Assembly (NCBI RefSeq): GCF_003018255.1
Contig: NZ_CP027440.1
Direction: 5' to 3' (one strand)
Length of the DNA stretch: 64,000 bases
From: Escherichia coli
GTDB lineage: Bacteria; Pseudomonadota; Gammaproteobacteria; Enterobacterales; Enterobacteriaceae
This document shows, one piece after another, positions 27,478 through 42,331 of this stretch (its first letter is position 1; every line of letters begins with the position of its first letter). The position numbers and the translations under genes were made by a program. The notes under the pieces are model-generated. The model worked only from the letters and a program-made list of their open reading frames with translations. It did not search any database and was not told the origin of the DNA.

Positions 27478-28659
27478 ATGACTAACAGCAATCGCATCAA
27501 GCTCACATGGATTAGCTTTCTCTCCTACGCACTGACTGGTGCGTTGGTTATTGTCACCGGGATGGTGATGGGAAATATCGCCGATTATTTCAATCTGCCT
27601 GTTTCCAGTATGAGTAACACCTTCACCTTCCTCAACGCCGGCATTTTAATCTCTATCTTCCTCAACGCCTGGCTGATGGAAATCGTCCCGTTGAAAACGC
27701 AGTTACGTTTTGGCTTTCTCCTGATGGTGCTGGCGGTTGCCGGTTTGATGTTCAGCCACAGCCTGGCGCTGTTCTCGGCGGCGATGTTCATTCTCGGAGT
27801 GGTCAGCGGCATCACCATGTCGATTGGTACATTCCTGATAACACAAATGTATGAAGGGCGTCAGCGCGGTTCCCGCCTGTTATTTACCGACTCCTTCTTC
27901 AGTATGGCCGGGATGATTTTCCCAATGATCGCCGCGTTTCTACTGGCGCGCAGCATTGAGTGGTACTGGGTTTATGCCTGCATCGGGTTGGTGTATGTCG
28001 CTATTTTTATTCTGACCTTCGGCTGTGAGTTCCCGGCGCTGGGCAAACATGCGCCAAAAACGGATGCTCCGGTAGAGAAAGAAAAGTGGGGGATCGGCGT
28101 GCTGTTTCTCTCCATTGCGGCACTGTGCTACATCCTCGGTCAGTTAGGTTTTATCTCCTGGGTGCCGGAGTATGCCAAAGGCCTGGGCATGAGCCTGAAC
28201 GACGCGGGCACGCTGGTGAGTAACTTCTGGATGTCATATATGGTCGGCATGTGGGCGTTCAGCTTTATTCTTCGCTTCTTTGATTTGCAACGTATTCTGA
28301 CCGTACTGGCTGGTCTGGCTGCGATTCTGATGTACGTCTTTAACACCGGAACACCAGCACATATGGCGTGGTCAATTCTCGCTCTGGGCTTCTTCTCCAG
28401 CGCGATCTATACCACCATCATCACCCTGGGTTCACAGCAAACCAAAGTACCGTCGCCAAAACTGGTTAACTTTGTCCTGACCTGCGGGACCATCGGTACT
28501 ATGTTGACCTTTGTGGTTACCGGCCCGATTGTTGAACATAGCGGTCCGCAGGCGGCACTGCTTACAGCAAACGGTCTGTACGCTGTCGTCTTTGTGATGT
28601 GCTTCCTGTTAGGTTTCGTCAGCCGTCACCGTCAGCATAACACCCTGACCTCTCATTAA
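27478..28659 (+). CDS. tsgA: MFS-type transporter TsgA
   Basis: 393-aa, about 12 predicted TM segments. Confidence 0.9.
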
Positions 28660-28819
28660 TTGCTCATGCCGGGCGGCGCTATCGTCGTCCGGCCTTTTCC
28701 TCTCTTACCCTGCTACGTGCATCTATTTCTATAAACCCGTTCAATTTGTCTGTTTTTTGCACAAACATGAAATGTCAGACAATTCCGTGACTTAAGAAAA
28801 TTTATACAAATCAGCAATA

Positions 28820-28835
28820 TACCCCTTAAGGAGTA
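28820..28835 (+). promoter_or_regulatory. NarL/NarP 7-2-7 heptamer pair at nirB promoter
   Basis: tacccct-ta-aggagta inverted heptamers centred 28 bp upstream of the FNR box. Confidence 0.5.
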
Positions 28836-28848
28836 TATAAAGGTGAAT

Positions 28849-28862
28849 TTGATTTACATCAA
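28849..28862 (+). promoter_or_regulatory. FNR box of nirB promoter
   Basis: ttgat-ttac-atcaa is a perfect FNR consensus, about 59-72 bp upstream of nirB ATG. Confidence 0.7.
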
Positions 28863-28920
28863 TAAGCGGGGTTGCTGAATCGTTAAGGTAGGCGGTAATA
28901 GAAAAGAAATCGAGGCAAAA

Positions 28921-31464
28921 ATGAGCAAAGTCAGACTCGCAATTATCGGTAACGGTATGGTCGGCCATCGCTTTATCGAAGATCTTCTTGATAAATCTGA
29001 TGCGGCCAACTTTGATATTACCGTTTTCTGTGAAGAACCGCGCATCGCTTATGACCGCGTACACCTCTCGTCTTACTTCTCTCACCACACCGCCGAAGAG
29101 CTGTCGCTGGTGCGCGAAGGCTTCTACGAGAAACACGGCATCAAAGTTCTGGTCGGCGAACGCGCTATCACCATCAACCGTCAGGAGAAGGTGATTCACT
29201 CCAGCGCCGGGCGCACCGTTTTTTATGACAAGCTGATCATGGCGACCGGTTCCTACCCGTGGATCCCGCCAATCAAAGGTTCTGATACTCAGGACTGCTT
29301 TGTCTATCGCACCATTGAAGACCTCAACGCCATTGAATCCTGCGCCCGTCGCAGCAAACGCGGTGCCGTTGTTGGTGGCGGCCTGTTAGGTCTGGAAGCC
29401 GCTGGCGCGCTGAAAAACTTAGGTATTGAAACCCACGTTATCGAATTTGCCCCTATGCTGATGGCGGAACAGCTTGATCAGATGGGTGGCGAGCAGCTGC
29501 GTCGCAAAATCGAAAGTATGGGCGTGCGCGTTCACACCAGCAAAAACACCCTTGAGATTGTGCAGGAAGGTGTCGAAGCGCGTAAAACCATGCGTTTTGC
29601 CGACGGCAGCGAACTGGAAGTCGACTTTATCGTCTTCTCTACCGGTATCCGTCCGCGCGATAAGCTGGCAACCCAGTGTGGTCTGGACGTTGCTCCGCGT
29701 GGGGGTATCGTCATAAATGATTCCTGCCAGACTTCCGATCCGGATATCTACGCCATCGGTGAATGCGCAAGCTGGAACAACCGTGTATTTGGTCTGGTAG
29801 CACCAGGCTACAAAATGGCGCAGGTCGCCGTTGACCATATTCTTGGTAGCGAAAACGCCTTTGAAGGTGCAGACCTTAGCGCCAAGCTGAAACTGCTGGG
29901 CGTAGACGTAGGCGGTATTGGTGATGCGCACGGTCGCACGCCTGGCGCACGTAGCTACGTTTACCTCGACGAAAGCAAAGAGATCTACAAACGCCTGATT
30001 GTCAGCGAAGACAACAAAACCCTGCTCGGTGCGGTACTGGTGGGCGATACCAGCGACTACGGCAACCTGCTGCAACTGGTGCTGAACGCTATCGAACTGC
30101 CGGAAAACCCGGATTCTCTGATTCTGCCGGCGCACTCAGGTAGCGGTAAGCCGTCTATCGGTGTTGATAAACTGCCGGACAGCGCGCAAATCTGCTCCTG
30201 CTTCGACGTCACCAAAGGCGATCTGATTGCAGCTATCAACAAAGGCTGCCACACCGTTGCGGCGCTGAAAGCTGAAACCAAAGCGGGTACTGGCTGCGGT
30301 GGCTGTATCCCGCTGGTCACTCAGGTACTGAACGCGGAACTGGCGAAACAGGGCATCGAAGTTAACAACAACCTGTGCGAACACTTTGCTTATTCGCGTC
30401 AGGAACTGTTCCATTTGATCCGCGTTGAAGGCATTAAAACCTTCGAAGAACTGCTGGCGAAACACGGCAAAGGCTACGGTTGTGAAGTTTGTAAACCGAC
30501 CGTCGGTTCGCTGCTGGCCTCCTGCTGGAACGAATACATTCTGAAGCCGGAACATACTCCGCTGCAGGATTCAAACGACAACTTCCTCGCTAACATCCAG
30601 AAAGACGGCACCTACTCGGTGATCCCGCGTTCTCCGGGCGGTGAAATCACCCCGGAAGGGCTGATGGCAGTAGGTCGTATCGCGCGTGAATTTAATCTCT
30701 ACACCAAAATCACCGGCTCTCAGCGCCTGGCGATGTTTGGCGCACAGAAAGACGATCTGCCGGAAATCTGGCGTCAGCTGATTGAAGCCGGCTTCGAAAC
30801 CGGTCATGCCTATGCGAAAGCACTGCGTATGGCGAAAACCTGCGTGGGTAGCACCTGGTGCCGCTACGGCGTTGGCGACAGCGTCGGCCTCGGCGTGGAA
30901 CTGGAAAACCGCTACAAAGGCATCCGTACGCCGCACAAAATGAAGTTCGGTGTCTCTGGCTGTACCCGTGAATGTTCAGAAGCTCAGGGTAAAGACGTGG
31001 GTATCATCGCCACCGAAAAAGGCTGGAACCTGTATGTTTGCGGTAACGGCGGCATGAAACCGCGTCATGCGAATCTGTTGGCAGCGGATATCGATCGCGA
31101 AACGCTGATCAAATATCTCGACCGCTTCATGATGTTCTACATCCGTACCGCCGACAAACTGACGCGTACCGCGCCGTGGTTAGAAAACCTCGAAGGTGGC
31201 ATCGATTACCTGAAAGCGGTGATCATTGACGACAAACTGGGGCTGAACGCACATCTGGAAGAAGAGATGGCGCGCCTGCGTGAAGCGGTAGTGTGTGAGT
31301 GGACTGAAACGGTCAATACCCCGTCTGCGCAGACTCGCTTCAAACACTTCATCAACAGCGATAAGCGTGACCCGAACGTGCAGATGGTGCCAGAGCGCGA
31401 ACAGCACCGTCCGGCAACGCCGTATGAACGTATCCCGGTAACTCTGGTGGAGGACAACGCATGA
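28921..31464 (+). CDS. nirB: NADH-dependent nitrite reductase large subunit
   Basis: 847-aa with N-terminal FAD/NAD Rossmann (RLAIIGNGMVGHRF), BFD-like [2Fe-2S] and siroheme/4Fe-4S domains. Confidence 0.98.
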   Translation: MSKVRLAIIGNGMVGHRFIEDLLDKSDAANFDITVFCEEPRIAYDRVHLSSYFSHHTAEELSLVREGFYEKHGIKVLVGERAITINRQEKVIHSSAGRTVFYDKLIMATGSYPWIPPIKGSDTQDCFVYRTIEDLNAIESCARRSKRGAVVGGGLLGLEAAGALKNLGIETHVIEFAPMLMAEQLDQMGGEQLRRKIESMGVRVHTSKNTLEIVQEGVEARKTMRFADGSELEVDFIVFSTGIRPRDKLATQCGLDVAPRGGIVINDSCQTSDPDIYAIGECASWNNRVFGLVAPGYKMAQVAVDHILGSENAFEGADLSAKLKLLGVDVGGIGDAHGRTPGARSYVYLDESKEIYKRLIVSEDNKTLLGAVLVGDTSDYGNLLQLVLNAIELPENPDSLILPAHSGSGKPSIGVDKLPDSAQICSCFDVTKGDLIAAINKGCHTVAALKAETKAGTGCGGCIPLVTQVLNAELAKQGIEVNNNLCEHFAYSRQELFHLIRVEGIKTFEELLAKHGKGYGCEVCKPTVGSLLASCWNEYILKPEHTPLQDSNDNFLANIQKDGTYSVIPRSPGGEITPEGLMAVGRIAREFNLYTKITGSQRLAMFGAQKDDLPEIWRQLIEAGFETGHAYAKALRMAKTCVGSTWCRYGVGDSVGLGVELENRYKGIRTPHKMKFGVSGCTRECSEAQGKDVGIIATEKGWNLYVCGNGGMKPRHANLLAADIDRETLIKYLDRFMMFYIRTADKLTRTAPWLENLEGGIDYLKAVIIDDKLGLNAHLEEEMARLREAVVCEWTETVNTPSAQTRFKHFINSDKRDPNVQMVPEREQHRPATPYERIPVTLVEDNA

Positions 31465-31787
31465 GCCAGTGGAAAGACATCTGCAAAATCGATGACATCC
31501 TGCCTGAAACCGGCGTCTGCGCGCTGTTAGGTGACGAACAAGTAGCAATTTTCCGCCCGTATCACAGCGATCAGGTGTTTGCGATCAGCAACATCGATCC
31601 GTTCTTCGAGTCCAGCGTGCTGTCACGCGGGCTGATTGCGGAACACCAGGGCGAGCTGTGGGTCGCCAGCCCGCTGAAAAAACAGCGTTTTCGCTTAAGT
31701 GATGGCTTGTGCATGGAAGACGAACAGTTTTCCGTCAAACATTACGAAGCACGAGTGAAAGACGGCGTGGTGCAGCTGCGCGGTTAA
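31461..31787 (+). CDS. nirD: Nitrite reductase small subunit
   Basis: 108-aa Rieske-like; ATGA overlap with nirB stop. Confidence 0.95.
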   Translation: MSQWKDICKIDDILPETGVCALLGDEQVAIFRPYHSDQVFAISNIDPFFESSVLSRGLIAEHQGELWVASPLKKQRFRLSDGLCMEDEQFSVKHYEARVKDGVVQLRG

Positions 31788-31797
31788 TGTTTTAACG

Positions 31798-31822
31798 GGA
31801 GGCGCAATGCCTCCCCTTTTTG
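31798..31822 (+). terminator. Intrinsic terminator/attenuator after nirD
   Basis: gggaggc-gcaat-gcctccc followed by ttttt. Confidence 0.6.
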
Positions 31823-31913
31823 CATGGTCCTGTAATGACCTTCGGTATATTGCAGGACATTTTTTAAACTTTTTGTTTTATTTTTTTGTTTTTATTTTTT
31901 AAAGGATAATCAA

Positions 31914-32720
31914 ATGTTTACAGACACTATTAATAAGTGTGCGGCTAACGCTGCGCGCATTGCACGCCTGTCGGCAAATAACCCGCTCGGCTTTTGGGTC
32001 AGCTCCGCCATGGCGGGCGCGTATGTGGGTCTTGGGATCATCCTGATTTTCACGCTCGGTAATTTGCTCGACCCGTCCGTACGTCCTCTGGTGATGGGCG
32101 CGACCTTTGGTATCGCCTTAACGCTGGTCATTATTGCTGGTTCTGAACTGTTCACCGGACACACCATGTTCCTCACCTTTGGAGTGAAAGCGGGCACTAT
32201 CAGCCACGGGCAAATGTGGGCAATCCTGCCGCAAACCTGGCTGGGTAACCTGGTTGGTTCCGTCTTTGTTGCCATGCTCTATAGCTGGGGCGGCGGTAGC
32301 CTGCTGCCGGTAGATACCAGCATCGTTCACTCCGTCGCGCTGGCTAAAACCACTGCACCGGCAATGGTACTGTTCTTCAAAGGTGCATTGTGTAACTGGC
32401 TGGTTTGCCTGGCTATCTGGATGGCGCTGCGCACTGAAGGGGCGGCGAAATTTATCGCTATCTGGTGGTGTCTGCTGGCATTTATCGCGTCCGGCTACGA
32501 GCACTCCATCGCTAACATGACGCTGTTCGCCCTCTCCTGGTTTGGCAACCACAGCGAAGCCTACACGCTGGCGGGTATTGGTCATAACCTGCTGTGGGTG
32601 ACGCTGGGTAATACTTTATCAGGTGCCGTATTCATGGGATTGGGTTATTGGTATGCTACGCCGAAAGCGAATCGTCCGGTTGCGGACAAATTTAATCAAA
32701 CTGAAACAGCTGCCGGTTAA
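31914..32720 (+). CDS. nirC: Nitrite transporter (formate/nitrite transporter family)
   Basis: 268-aa polytopic membrane protein; FNT-family fold by memory. Confidence 0.95.
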   Translation: MFTDTINKCAANAARIARLSANNPLGFWVSSAMAGAYVGLGIILIFTLGNLLDPSVRPLVMGATFGIALTLVIIAGSELFTGHTMFLTFGVKAGTISHGQMWAILPQTWLGNLVGSVFVAMLYSWGGGSLLPVDTSIVHSVALAKTTAPAMVLFFKGALCNWLVCLAIWMALRTEGAAKFIAIWWCLLAFIASGYEHSIANMTLFALSWFGNHSEAYTLAGIGHNLLWVTLGNTLSGAVFMGLGYWYATPKANRPVADKFNQTETAAG

Positions 32721-32738
32721 TTACTAAGGGGTTTTTAC

Positions 32739-34112
32739 GTGGATCATTTGCCTATATTTTGCCAATTACGCGATCGCGACTGTCTGATTGTCGGCGGTGG
32801 TGATGTCGCGGAACGCAAAGCAAGGTTACTGTTAGACGCAGGCGCTCGCTTAACGGTGAATGCATTAGCGTTTATTCCACAGTTCACCGCATGGGCAGAT
32901 GCAGGCATGTTAACCCTCGTCGAAGGGCCATTTGATGAAAGCCTTCTCGACACCTGCTGGCTGGCGATTGCTGCGACGGATGATGACGCGCTTAACCAGC
33001 GCGTCAGTGAAGCCGCTGAAGCTCGTCGCATCTTCTGTAACGTGGTCGATGCGCCGAAAGCCGCCAGCTTTATTATGCCGTCAATTATTGACCGCTCACC
33101 GCTAATGGTCGCGGTCTCCTCTGGCGGCACCTCTCCGGTTCTGGCGCGCCTGTTGCGCGAAAAACTCGAATCACTGCTGCCGCTGCATCTGGGCCAGGTA
33201 GCGAAATACGCCGGGCAATTACGCGGGCGAGTGAAACAACAGTTCGCCACGATGGGTGAGCGTCGCCGTTTCTGGGAGAAATTGTTCGTTAACGACCGCC
33301 TGGCGCAGTCGCTGGCAAACAACGATCAGAAAGCCATTACTGAAACCACCGAACAGTTAATCAACGAACCGCTCGACCATCGCGGTGAAGTGGTGCTGGT
33401 TGGTGCAGGTCCGGGCGATGCCGGGCTGCTGACACTGAAAGGTCTGCAACAAATTCAGCAGGCAGATGTGGTGGTCTACGACCGTCTGGTTTCTGACGAT
33501 ATTATGAATCTGGTACGCCGCGATGCTGATCGCGTTTTCGTCGGCAAACGCGCGGGATACCACTGCGTACCGCAGGAAGAGATAAACCAGATCCTGCTAC
33601 GGGAAGCGCAAAAAGGCAAACGCGTGGTGCGGCTGAAAGGCGGCGATCCGTTTATTTTTGGCCGTGGTGGCGAAGAGCTGGAAACACTGTGCAACGCGGG
33701 TATTCCGTTCTCGGTGGTTCCGGGTATTACCGCAGCTTCTGGTTGCTCTGCCTATTCGGGTATTCCGCTCACGCATCGCGATTATGCCCAGAGCGTACGC
33801 TTAATTACCGGACACTTAAAAACCGGTGGCGAACTGGACTGGGAAAACCTGGCGGCAGAAAAACAGACGCTGGTGTTCTATATGGGGTTGAATCAGGCCG
33901 CGACTATTCAGCAAAAGCTGATTGAACACGGTATGCCTGGCGAAATGCCGGTGGCAATTGTCGAAAACGGAACGGCAGTCACGCAGCGCGTGATTGACGG
34001 TACACTCTCGCAGCTGGGCGAACTGGCGCAGCAAATGAACAGTCCATCGCTAATTATTATTGGTCGGGTTGTTGGCCTGCGCGATAAATTGAACTGGTTC
34101 TCCAACCATTAA
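32739..34112 (+). CDS. cysG: Siroheme synthase (multifunctional)
   Basis: 457-aa: N-terminal dehydrogenase/ferrochelatase part and C-terminal SAM methyltransferase part ([18 protein letters not shown]). Confidence 0.97.
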
Positions 34113-34120
34113 TTTAACCC

Positions 34121-34146
34121 GGGCCAGAGAATTCTGGCCTTCTTAA
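34121..34146 (+). terminator. Hairpin after cysG
   Basis: ggccag-agaatt-ctggcc followed by ttcttaat. Confidence 0.45.
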
Positions 34147-34358
34147 TGACTCTTTTTATATATTCAGCAAATAAAACATAACCCCTTAATAAATATTATC
34201 TGCTAATGGGTTATATTCACCGTTACAGCGACTTACAAAATTAAGCCATTCACTCACTGACGCTAATTAAATATTCCTGTATCGTTCTTAATGAGCAGTC
34301 CGCTTATATTCATATAAACAATAAATATTAACCAATATATAATACATAGGGAATGTAA

Positions 34359-34526
34359 ATGAACAAATTTATTGAAGTTACACTGGTAGGTGCGGTACTG
34401 GCTACGTTAACTGCATGTACTGGTCATATTGAAAACCGTGATAAAAACTGCTCTTACGACTACCTGCTGCACCCGGCAATTTCTATTTCTAAAATCATTG
34501 GCGGTTGCGGTCCTACTGCACAGTAA
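34359..34526 (+). CDS. yhfL: Small lipoprotein YhfL
   Basis: Absent from the ORF track (55 aa): MNKFIEVTLVGAVLATLTACTGHIENRDKNCSYDYLLHPAISISKIIGGCGPTAQ with lipobox LTAC. Confidence 0.75.
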   Translation: MNKFIEVTLVGAVLATLTACTGHIENRDKNCSYDYLLHPAISISKIIGGCGPTAQ

Positions 34527-34566
34527 GTCTCTGACTGAAAGCGGCTAACACCGGTTTAATTGCCTG

Positions 34567-34600
34567 ACGCCCTCGGGGTTACCCGAGGGCGTATTTATTT
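34567..34600 (+). terminator. Intrinsic terminator after yhfL
   Basis: gccctcggg-gtta-cccgagggc followed by gtatttatttctg. Confidence 0.6.
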
Positions 34601-34632
34601 CTGCATTCTTTTCGAAAACATCATGCACAAGA

Positions 34633-35718
34633 TTAAATACTGGCAATACTCTCACGCAAAATCCGCAGCACCGTCTCTTCACCGCTGCGATTTGGGTTAA
34701 TACGAATCGCGTAATGTTCGAGTTGCGGATTCGCCTGGCGAAACGTTCCGGAAAGTCGATAAAAAAGTGGCGGAATTTCATATTTCGACTCTGCACCAAC
34801 CGGGTAAGGCAAGGCACCGCGCTTTTGCGCCTCTTCCAGCACTCTGGCGGCAATCGGCTGATGAAACTCGACAATCAACACTTTCGACTGCGCATTGGCA
34901 ATCACCGCGCTTTTCACTTCCGCCACTGCGCCACCGTTAAGTAAAGCCAGCAACCGTTCAGATACCCCCGCCTGCACCGCGTGCATCACTGGCGCAAACA
35001 CCAGCCCACGCAAGACTTCCAACGCCTGAGCGCCCTGAATCTGGCTGCCGCCGGAGTAGAGCGTGGCGCGAATACGGTTAATAACATCAGCATCGCCTAC
35101 CACCGCGCCAACACCCTCTGGCCCAAATAGCTTGAAGCAGGAAAATGTCGAGACATTCGCCCCGCATTCACAGCCGATTCGCGCTACCTTCATCACCGCA
35201 TAGTTGTCATCGGTTAACGCTGGAACACCTGCCGCGCGCAACGTTGCTAGCACGTCTGCCAGCACATAGCGGTCCTGCGGCTGCTGGCGCGTATGCTGCA
35301 CCAGCGCCGCATCCGGTTGTTGCGCTTCAATGATTTGTTTAAGCGCCGACAGATCATTGAAATCAGCCGTAATGAGCGTTAGCCCCATCTGCTCAATAAT
35401 AACCCGTGTCGTCGGGTAAACAGGCGCGTCATGCACCAGAAGACGCTGCCCCGGTATGAGCAAAGCTGCCAGCGCCGCACGGATCGCGCCAGTACCCGCG
35501 CCCTGTACCAGCGCCGCGGCCTGTGAGTGAAACGCGTCAGCCAGCACCTGTTCCACACGCTGGGTAATGCGCGGTTGATTCAGTCCCGGCGTTAATCCCA
35601 AATCACCGCAGGTAAGAAATTCGCTACCAGGAAAATGGCGGCAAATCGTGTCCACCAGCGCAAACTGCTTTTGCTGCGCCTCAATAATCGTCAGGCTTTG
35701 CAGAGGAAACGTCTTCAT
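34633..35718 (-). CDS. yhfS: Uncharacterised putative PLP-dependent enzyme YhfS
   Basis: 361-aa soluble protein; last gene of the yhfZ-to-yhfS minus-strand cluster; fold assignment from memory, not sequence-proven. Confidence 0.85.
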   Translation of the reverse strand: MKTFPLQSLTIIEAQQKQFALVDTICRHFPGSEFLTCGDLGLTPGLNQPRITQRVEQVLADAFHSQAAALVQGAGTGAIRAALAALLIPGQRLLVHDAPVYPTTRVIIEQMGLTLITADFNDLSALKQIIEAQQPDAALVQHTRQQPQDRYVLADVLATLRAAGVPALTDDNYAVMKVARIGCECGANVSTFSCFKLFGPEGVGAVVGDADVINRIRATLYSGGSQIQGAQALEVLRGLVFAPVMHAVQAGVSERLLALLNGGAVAEVKSAVIANAQSKVLIVEFHQPIAARVLEEAQKRGALPYPVGAESKYEIPPLFYRLSGTFRQANPQLEHYAIRINPNRSGEETVLRILRESIASI

Positions 35719-42160: not shown

Positions 42161-42186
42161 AAAAAAACCGGGTTTCCCCGGTTTCA
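42161..42186 (-). terminator. Intrinsic terminator downstream of trpS
   Basis: Minus strand reads ccgggg-aaa-cccgg followed by ttttttt. Confidence 0.55.
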
Positions 42187-42208
42187 GAGTGATGATAAAA
42201 GCAAAATT

Positions 42209-42299
42209 GCCTGATGCGCTACGCTTATCAGGCCTACATTTCCTTGCAATATGTGCATTACTTTGTAGGCCGGATAAGGCGTTCACGCCGCATCCGGCA
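42209..42299. repeat. BIME: two inverted REP elements
   Basis: gcctgatgcgctacgcttatcaggcctac (42209-42237) and gtaggccggataaggcgttcacgccgcatccggca (42265-42299). Confidence 0.8.
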
Positions 42300-42331
42300 T
42301 GAACAAAGCGCAATTTGCCAGCAATAGTGAA

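What the first reader, a model, noticed from the sequence alone, without database searches (positions are those of the whole stretch)
28820..28862. nirB promoter: perfect FNR box with NarL/NarP 7-2-7 site 28 bp upstream
ttgatttacatcaa is an exact FNR consensus. tacccct-ta-aggagta lies three helical turns upstream. Spacing to the nirB ATG fits a class II FNR promoter with an upstream nitrate/nitrite response-regulator site.
Basis: partly seen in the sequence, partly recalled or inferred. Interest (0 to 1): 0.3.

Follow-up and report, generated by a model that had tools for sequence, protein, structure and literature searches.

The report
Known E. coli nirB (nir) promoter

Summary
TTGATTTACATCAA (28849-28862) is the only exact FNR consensus in the 64 kb window. 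TACCCCTTAAGGAGTA (28820-28835) is the only match to the NarL/NarP 7-2-7 consensus. Their centres are 28 bp apart.

The window is E. coli chromosome, and the sites lie in the tsgA-nirB intergenic region upstream of nirBDC-cysG. Using the published start point, 24 nt before the ATG at 28921 (so 28897), the FNR site is centred at -41.5 and the NarL/NarP site at -69.5. The -10 hexamer TAAGGT falls at -13..-8. These are the published positions for the E. coli K-12 nir promoter.

From about -122 to the ATG the window differs from K-12 by one base: C instead of A at 28825 (-72), inside the upstream heptamer. Both bases fit the TACYYMT consensus. The C form is the commoner one (3809 of 5425 complete genomes, against 1199 for K-12's A).

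The same two-site arrangement occurs upstream of nirB in 83 species-representative genomes of many Enterobacterales genera.

28 bp is about 2.7 helical turns, not three. NarL is reported to act here by displacing IHF (anti-repression), not as a classic co-activator.

Verdict: already known, low interest.

The parts
28820..28835 (.). NarL/NarP 7-2-7 site TACCCCT-TA-AGGAGTA, centred at -69.5
   Evidence: Only match to TACYYMTNNAKRRGTA in the window, none in 100 shuffles. Both heptamers fit TACYYMT (consensus quoted in PMC4886647). NarL is reported at -69.5 at the nir promoter (PMC10853779).
28817..28838 (.). Extended palindrome ATATACCCCTTAAGGAGTATAT around the 7-2-7 site
   Evidence: Inverted-repeat finder: 14-nt overlapping arms, 93% complementary. 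Over 28816-28839, 20 of 24 positions are self-complementary, against 18 of 24 for the K-12 allele. [quoted passage not shown]
28825..28825 (+). Natural polymorphism at -72 in the upstream heptamer: C here, A in K-12
   Evidence: Alignment with six E. coli strains. The 65-nt core with C is identical in 3809 of 5425 complete genomes; the K-12 form is identical in 1199. Both bases fit the M position of TACYYMT.
28849..28862 (.). FNR box TTGATTTACATCAA, centred at -41.5 (class II position)
   Evidence: Only exact consensus in the window. The nirBDC-cysG FNR site is listed at -41.5 with a ChIP peak in PMC3688515. Consensus and class II definition are quoted in PMC4886647.
28884..28889 (+). -10 hexamer TAAGGT (-13 to -8). 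No recognisable -35: AATAAG at 28861-28866 matches TTGACA at 1 of 6 positions.
   Evidence: TAAGGT is named as the essential -10 hexamer of the nirB promoter in PMC4216584. It is conserved in 62 of 81 orthologous promoters from other species. The sigma-70 consensus scan finds no promoter here, as expected for an activator-dependent promoter.
28897..28897 (+). Inferred transcription start (+1), 24 nt upstream of the ATG
   Evidence: Not mapped here. It is inferred from the published K-12 start point, 23 or 24 nt before the ATG (PMC4216584 citing Jayaraman et al. 1987), and from sequence identity to K-12.
28809..28821 (+). IHF-like core AATCAGCAATATA in the region of the reported IHF I site (-88); overlaps the NarL site by 2 bp
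   Evidence: Relaxed match to WATCARNNNNNTR; the strict consensus WATCARNNNNTTR does not match. AAATCA at 28808-28813 is among the most conserved unconstrained columns across 79 distinct orthologous promoters. IHF at -88 clashing with NarL at -69.5 is stated in PMC10853779. Binding was not tested.
28874..28889 (+). Cra (FruR)-like operator GCTGAATCGTTAAGGT overlapping the -10 hexamer
   Evidence: Seen directly in the sequence and conserved across species. FruR is listed as a negative regulator of nirB in PMC3686733. The operator assignment and its position (about -16) rest on my recollection of Tyson et al. 1997 and were not tested.
28912..28915 (+). Shine-Dalgarno GAGG, 5 nt before the nirB ATG
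   Evidence: Seen in the sequence; conserved across species.
28921..34112 (+). Regulated operon: nirB 28921-31464, nirD 31461-31787, nirC 31914-32720, cysG 32739-34112
   Evidence: ORF list, RefSeq annotation of the matching region, Pfam domains of NirB.
28668..28693 (+). Terminator-like hairpin of the upstream gene tsgA; marks the upstream edge of the nir regulatory region
   Evidence: Terminator scan: 11-pair stem with 9 GC pairs, followed by a T-rich tail.

Best explanation
This is the promoter of the E. coli nirBDC-cysG operon (pnir), a class II FNR-dependent promoter. Without oxygen, dimeric [4Fe-4S] FNR binds the perfect TTGAT-N4-ATCAA box centred at -41.5. There it overlaps the missing -35 element and recruits RNA polymerase to the weak -10 hexamer TAAGGT. 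Transcription starts about 24 nt before the nirB ATG. With nitrate or nitrite, phosphorylated NarL or NarP binds the 7-2-7 inverted heptamers centred at -69.5. According to the published model, this displaces IHF from an overlapping site at -88 and relieves the repression that IHF and Fis place on FNR-dependent activation. The regulator therefore acts as an anti-repressor rather than a direct activator. Shown here: the motifs, their uniqueness in the window, their spacing, the gene context, near-identity to K-12, and conservation across species. Taken from the literature: the start point, protein binding, and the anti-repression mechanism.
For: The motifs are unique and exact. The intergenic region matches nirB upstream DNA in 5425 of 5426 complete E. 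coli genomes. The gene order is tsgA | nirB nirD nirC cysG. From about -122 to the ATG there is one difference from K-12. The geometry of -41.5 and -69.5 with TAAGGT at -13..-8 follows from the published start 23-24 nt before the ATG and agrees with published positions. NarL displacing IHF at -88 and relieving Fis/IHF repression is stated in PMC3688515 and PMC10853779. Dependence on NarXL/NarQP for nitrite and nitrate induction of pnirB::lacZ is reported in PMC1802743. A genome-wide pattern scan found the same 7-2-7 + 13 bp + FNR box arrangement in 87 species representatives, about 0.5 expected by chance by my calculation. Of these, 83 are 54-60 nt upstream of a nirB homologue. Columns the pattern did not constrain are also conserved: the -10 hexamer, the AAATCA block at -89..-84, and the Shine-Dalgarno region.
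Against: Nothing in the data contradicts it. The start point, protein binding and induction were not measured for this strain. The primary footprinting papers were not readable here, so positions of the Fis sites and the second IHF site come from memory only. The cross-species scan selected for the two motifs at fixed spacing, so it shows how widespread the arrangement is, not how often it is absent.
Confidence: 0.96

Rival explanations
1. The 7-2-7 site works as a conventional upstream activator site: NarL or NarP bound at -69.5 contacts the RNA polymerase alpha C-terminal domain or FNR directly, rather than acting through IHF displacement.
For: NarL activates directly by recruiting RNA polymerase at the yeaR and ogt promoters (PMC10853779), so direct activation is within its repertoire.
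Against: The same paper and PMC3688515 describe the nir promoter as a distinct anti-repression case. The 28-bp offset from FNR is about 2.7 helical turns, so the two dimers are not on the same face. The IHF-like core overlaps the upstream heptamer by 2 bp and is conserved, which fits a competition mechanism.
Confidence: 0.08
2. The single-base difference from K-12 at -72 (C for A in the upstream heptamer) changes NarL/NarP affinity or IHF competition, so this strain's nir promoter responds differently to nitrite and nitrate than the K-12 model promoter.
For: The change lies inside the binding site and raises dyad symmetry from 18 to 20 of 24 positions. It splits E. coli into a major C group (3809 genomes) and a minor A group that includes K-12 (1199 genomes).
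Against: Both bases fit the consensus position M of TACYYMT. Both occur freely at this position among orthologous promoters of other genera, which suggests near-neutrality.
Confidence: 0.15
3. The motifs are chance matches with no regulatory role, or the palindrome is a site for another CRP/FNR-family protein such as CRP.
For: An exact FNR consensus appeared at least once in 9 of 100 shuffles of the window.
Against: The joint occurrence, at the right distance from nirB and with a 7-2-7 site that never appeared in shuffles, is conserved upstream of nirB in 83 species. FNR occupancy at nirB in vivo is published. The half-sites are TTGAT, the FNR type, not the CRP-type TGTGA.
Confidence: 0.01

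Closest known systems
Escherichia coli K-12 nir operon promoter (pnir / PnirB)
   Same: Same locus and gene order. Same FNR box sequence, same spacing, same -10 hexamer and leader. Identical sequence from about -122 to the ATG except one base. FNR at -41.5 and NarL/NarP at -69.5, as published.
   Different: C instead of A at -72 (window 28825) and G instead of A at -123 (window 28774), plus several substitutions further upstream near the tsgA terminator. The C allele is the commoner form in E. coli.
E. coli nrf operon promoter (pnrf)
   Same: Also FNR-dependent at -41.5 and further induced by NarL/NarP in response to nitrite, with FNR-dependent transcription suppressed by nucleoid-associated proteins (PMC5434802 abstract).
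   Different: [quoted passage not shown]
NarL-only promoters yeaR and ogt
   Same: Use the same 7-2-7 NarL target (PMC10853779).
   Different: There the sites are at -43.5 (yeaR) or at -44.5 and -77.5 (ogt), and NarL recruits RNA polymerase directly without FNR. At nir the site is at -69.5 and NarL acts as an anti-repressor.

Membership tests
E. coli nir operon promoter (class II FNR-dependent promoter) | FNR site matching TTGAT-N4-ATCAA | tested here: met
   10 of 10 consensus positions at 28849-28862; the only such site in the window.
E. coli nir operon promoter (class II FNR-dependent promoter) | FNR site centred at -41.5 relative to the transcription start | tested here: met
   Centre 28855.5. 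The published start 24 nt before the ATG (28897) gives -41.5. The start point itself was not mapped in this strain.
E. coli nir operon promoter (class II FNR-dependent promoter) | -10 hexamer TAAGGT and no functional -35 | tested here: met
   TAAGGT at 28884-28889. No sigma-70 consensus promoter detected.
E. coli nir operon promoter (class II FNR-dependent promoter) | Located upstream of nirBDC-cysG, downstream of tsgA | tested here: met
   ORFs and RefSeq annotation; NirB Pfam domains.
E. coli nir operon promoter (class II FNR-dependent promoter) | Anaerobic, FNR-dependent transcription in vivo | not testable with these tools
   Known for K-12; needs reporter or RNA measurements in this strain.
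NarL/NarP 7-2-7 response element | Two inverted heptamers matching TACYYMT, separated by 2 bp | tested here: met
   TACCCCT on the + strand and TACTCCT on the - strand, 2-bp spacer. Consensus quoted; 7-2-7 definition.
NarL/NarP 7-2-7 response element | Centred at -69.5 at pnir, overlapping or abutting the IHF I site at -88 | tested here: met
   Centre 28827.5, which is -69.5. An IHF-like core at 28809-28821 overlaps it by 2 bp. The IHF core is only a relaxed consensus match.
NarL/NarP 7-2-7 response element | Binding of phosphorylated NarL/NarP, and nitrate/nitrite induction that depends on the site | not testable with these tools
   Published for K-12; not measured for the C allele at -72.

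The most novel reading that the evidence does not exclude
The laboratory model of this promoter (K-12) carries the minority A allele at -72 in the upstream NarL/NarP heptamer, while about 70% of complete E. coli genomes, including this window, carry C. The C allele makes the site more symmetrical. If C measurably strengthens NarL/NarP binding or IHF displacement, most natural E. coli would induce nitrite reductase differently from the K-12 paradigm.
Probability: 0.12. Interest if true: 0.25.

Novelty: already known. Interest (0 to 1): 0.05.

Why it matters
It matters little as a discovery. The nir promoter has been dissected since 1987 and is a textbook case of co-dependence on FNR and NarL/NarP, and a common anaerobic expression tool. 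Two small additions come out of it. K-12 carries the minority allele inside the NarL heptamer. The exact two-site arrangement is conserved at fixed spacing upstream of nirB across many Enterobacterales genera.

Tried and rejected
1. The sigma-70 consensus scan of 28600-28960 found no promoter. This is expected for an activator-dependent promoter and does not count against it.

2. An Rfam scan of the whole window at gathering thresholds found nothing, so no known RNA element is involved in the leader.

3. I tried to read the primary papers: Browning et al. 2008 (DOI and PMC2580697), Wang and Gunsalus 2000 (PMC94705) and Jayaraman et al. 1989 (PMC331540). None are held. Positions of the Fis sites, the second IHF site and the Cra operator therefore rest on memory and are marked as such.

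4. I first assumed the window came from strain CFSAN061763, whose intergenic region is 100% identical. This was wrong. The rest of the window is only about 98.2% identical, and the first 5 kb differs in gene content.

5. A strict IHF consensus (WATCARNNNNTTR) does not match near -88; only a relaxed form does.

6. The cross-species scan returned no Escherichia, Shigella, Klebsiella or Salmonella enterica subsp. enterica records, although the E. coli sequence fits the pattern. I cannot tell whether this reflects how the collection is built, so I draw no conclusion from the absences.

Full report
**The observation**

Reading 28500-29200 shows TACCCCTTAAGGAGTA at 28820-28835 and TTGATTTACATCAA at 28849-28862, so the coordinates given bracket both motifs exactly. 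TTGAT-N4-ATCAA occurs once in the 64 kb window on either strand, with 0.09 expected from dinucleotide-preserving shuffles. Allowing one mismatch adds only four sites, all elsewhere. The 7-2-7 consensus TACYYMT-NN-AKRRGTA also occurs once, and never in 100 shuffles. The site is the core of a 22-nt palindrome at 28817-28838. The centres are 28855.5 and 28827.5, which is 28 bp apart, with 13 bp between the motif edges.

**Where it is**

The 266-bp intergenic region matches 5425 of 5426 complete E. coli genomes. In every chromosomal match listed it runs into the start of the gene annotated nirB. The ORFs and the RefSeq annotation of an identical region give:
- ppiA (minus strand)
- tsgA, 27478-28659
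- the intergenic region
- nirB, 28921-31464
- nirD, 31461-31787
- nirC, 31914-32720
- cysG, 32739-34112

The 847-aa product has the flavin oxidoreductase, BFD-like [2Fe-2S] and nitrite/sulphite reductase domains expected of NirB. A terminator-like hairpin at 28668-28693 closes tsgA.

**Geometry**

The published K-12 start point is 23 or 24 nt before the ATG, and the essential -10 hexamer is TAAGGT (PMC4216584, citing Jayaraman et al. 1987 and 1989). With +1 at 28897:
- TAAGGT (28884-28889) lies at -13 to -8
- the FNR box is centred at -41.5
- the 7-2-7 site is centred at -69.5

These are the published positions. PMC3688515 lists the nirBDC-cysG FNR site at -41.5 with a ChIP peak, and PMC10853779 places NarL at -69.5. 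The -35 position (AATAAG at 28861-28866) matches TTGACA at one of six bases, and a sigma-70 consensus scan finds no promoter. That is typical of a class II activator-dependent promoter. The class II definition and the FNR consensus are quoted in PMC4886647.

**Comparison with K-12 and other E. coli**

I aligned the region with six strains. From about -122 to the ATG, the only difference from a K-12-type genome is C instead of A at 28825 (-72), inside the upstream heptamer. A second difference, G for A, lies at 28774 (-123), and a few more lie near the tsgA terminator. Both TACCCCT and K-12's TACCCAT fit TACYYMT. The C allele raises the self-complementarity of the extended site from 18 to 20 of 24 positions. 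The 65-nt core (28816-28880) with C is identical in 3809 of 5425 genomes, and the K-12 version in 1199. K-12 therefore carries the minority allele. In the rows sampled from best to weakest, no genome fell below 98.4% identity over this core.

**Conservation across genera**

I scanned one genome per bacterial species for TACYYNT-NN-ANRRGTA, then 13 bases, then TTGAT-N4-ATCAA. This gave 87 loci. By my calculation from the 40 bits specified and about 6e11 positions, roughly 0.5 would be expected by chance.

In 82 loci a NirB homologue starts 54-60 nt after the FNR box (59 nt in 63 loci, as in the window). One further locus is a nirB promoter cut off by the end of the stored DNA. The genera include Citrobacter, Kluyvera, Buttiauxella, Pantoea, Erwinia, Cedecea, Enterobacter, Kosakonia, Atlantibacter, Franconibacter, Raoultella, Pectobacterium and Salmonella (subsp. 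arizonae).

An anchored column profile of 79 distinct sequences shows conservation in columns the pattern did not constrain:
- TAAGGT in 62 of 81 loci
- the bases around it (GCTGAATCG...)
- an AAATCA block at 28808-28813 (-89 to -84)
- the Shine-Dalgarno GAGG

Position 6 of the upstream heptamer is freely A or C among these species. The scan selected for the motifs, so it shows breadth, not frequency.

**Mechanism**

This part is taken from the literature, not tested here. FNR is essential for activity. NarL or NarP is needed for nitrite and nitrate induction, and in a narXL narQ narP strain pnirB::lacZ is very low under all three anaerobic growth conditions tested (PMC1802743). At this promoter NarL displaces IHF from a site at -88 that clashes with the -69.5 site, which relieves repression by IHF and Fis and lets FNR activate (PMC3688515; PMC10853779). 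In the window, an IHF-like core AATCAGCAATATA at 28809-28821 overlaps the upstream heptamer by 2 bp. Together with the conserved AAATCA block, this fits the competition model, although only a relaxed IHF consensus matches. FruR (Cra) is listed as a negative regulator of nirB (PMC3686733). The sequence GCTGAATCGTTAAGGT at 28874-28889, overlapping the -10 hexamer, looks like its operator; that assignment rests on my recollection of Tyson et al. 1997.

**Rivals**

- Direct activation by NarL, as at yeaR and ogt, is possible in principle. It is contradicted by the published description of nir and by the out-of-phase spacing.
- Chance, or a CRP site, is excluded by the conservation and by the TTGAT-type half-sites.
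- The only open question with any novelty is whether the -72 polymorphism has a functional effect. The evidence here points to near-neutrality.

**Verdict**

The observation and the interpretation are both correct. The element is the well-known E. coli nir operon promoter. Novelty: already known. Interest: low.

Noticed in passing
L024:6223-6265 and L061:5483-5525 (Shewanella waksmanii, S. benthica): The same 7-2-7 + 13 bp + FNR-type box arrangement lies 91 nt upstream of an OmpW-family outer membrane protein gene (Pfam PF03922, E = 1.3e-64). In E. coli, ompW is FNR- and NarL-regulated but through differently placed sites. Shewanella may have a nir-like promoter layout at ompW.
   Followed up: partly
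L062:419-461 and L083:4527-4569 (- strand) (Porticoccus MAGs): The combined pattern also matches in two Porticoccus contigs, with no ORF of at least 80 aa starting within 400 nt downstream and no NirB hit. This may be a chance or coding-region match. The two contigs are nearly identical around the match.
   Followed up: no
window 34113-34700 (between yhfL and yhfS): The fructoselysine operon frlABCDR, which lies between yhfL and yhfS in K-12, is absent here and in strain CFSAN061763. This is a presence/absence difference among E. coli lineages.
   Followed up: partly
window 1-5003: The window starts in gspM-gspO, then bfr, bfd, chiA and tufA. Strain CFSAN061763, whose nir promoter is identical, lacks chiA and the other gsp genes here and keeps only a prepilin peptidase gene next to rpsJ. 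The window is therefore from a different strain, about 98.2% identical over 5004-64000.
   Followed up: partly
window 42184-42330: About 130 nt is present here but absent from CFSAN061763. It contains REP-like palindromes (gcctgatgcgctacgcttatcaggcctac and gtaggccggataaggcgttcacgccgcatccggca), typical of a BIME/REP intergenic element.
   Followed up: partly
window 31788-31913 (nirD-nirC spacer): In Salmonella this spacer is reported to hold an operon-internal terminator and an RNase E processing region, with a target site for the small RNA NarS that selectively represses nirC (PMC7038943). I did not examine it in this window.
   Followed up: no
NZ_AP027687.1 (114,901-bp plasmid record), 30279-30330: A plasmid record carries a 52-nt match to the nirB leader and start (query positions 215-266) without the promoter. 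A different search also found one plasmid copy of the 65-nt promoter core. These are possibly misassigned contigs or captured chromosomal fragments.
   Followed up: no
window 1-64000: Rfam at gathering thresholds reports no RNA family anywhere in the window, although it includes ribosomal-protein and tufA/fusA operon regions.
   Followed up: no
Genome-contig scan: No Escherichia, Shigella, Klebsiella or Salmonella enterica subsp. enterica record was returned, although the E. coli sequence fits the pattern. I cannot tell whether the collection omits them or their promoters differ.
   Followed up: no
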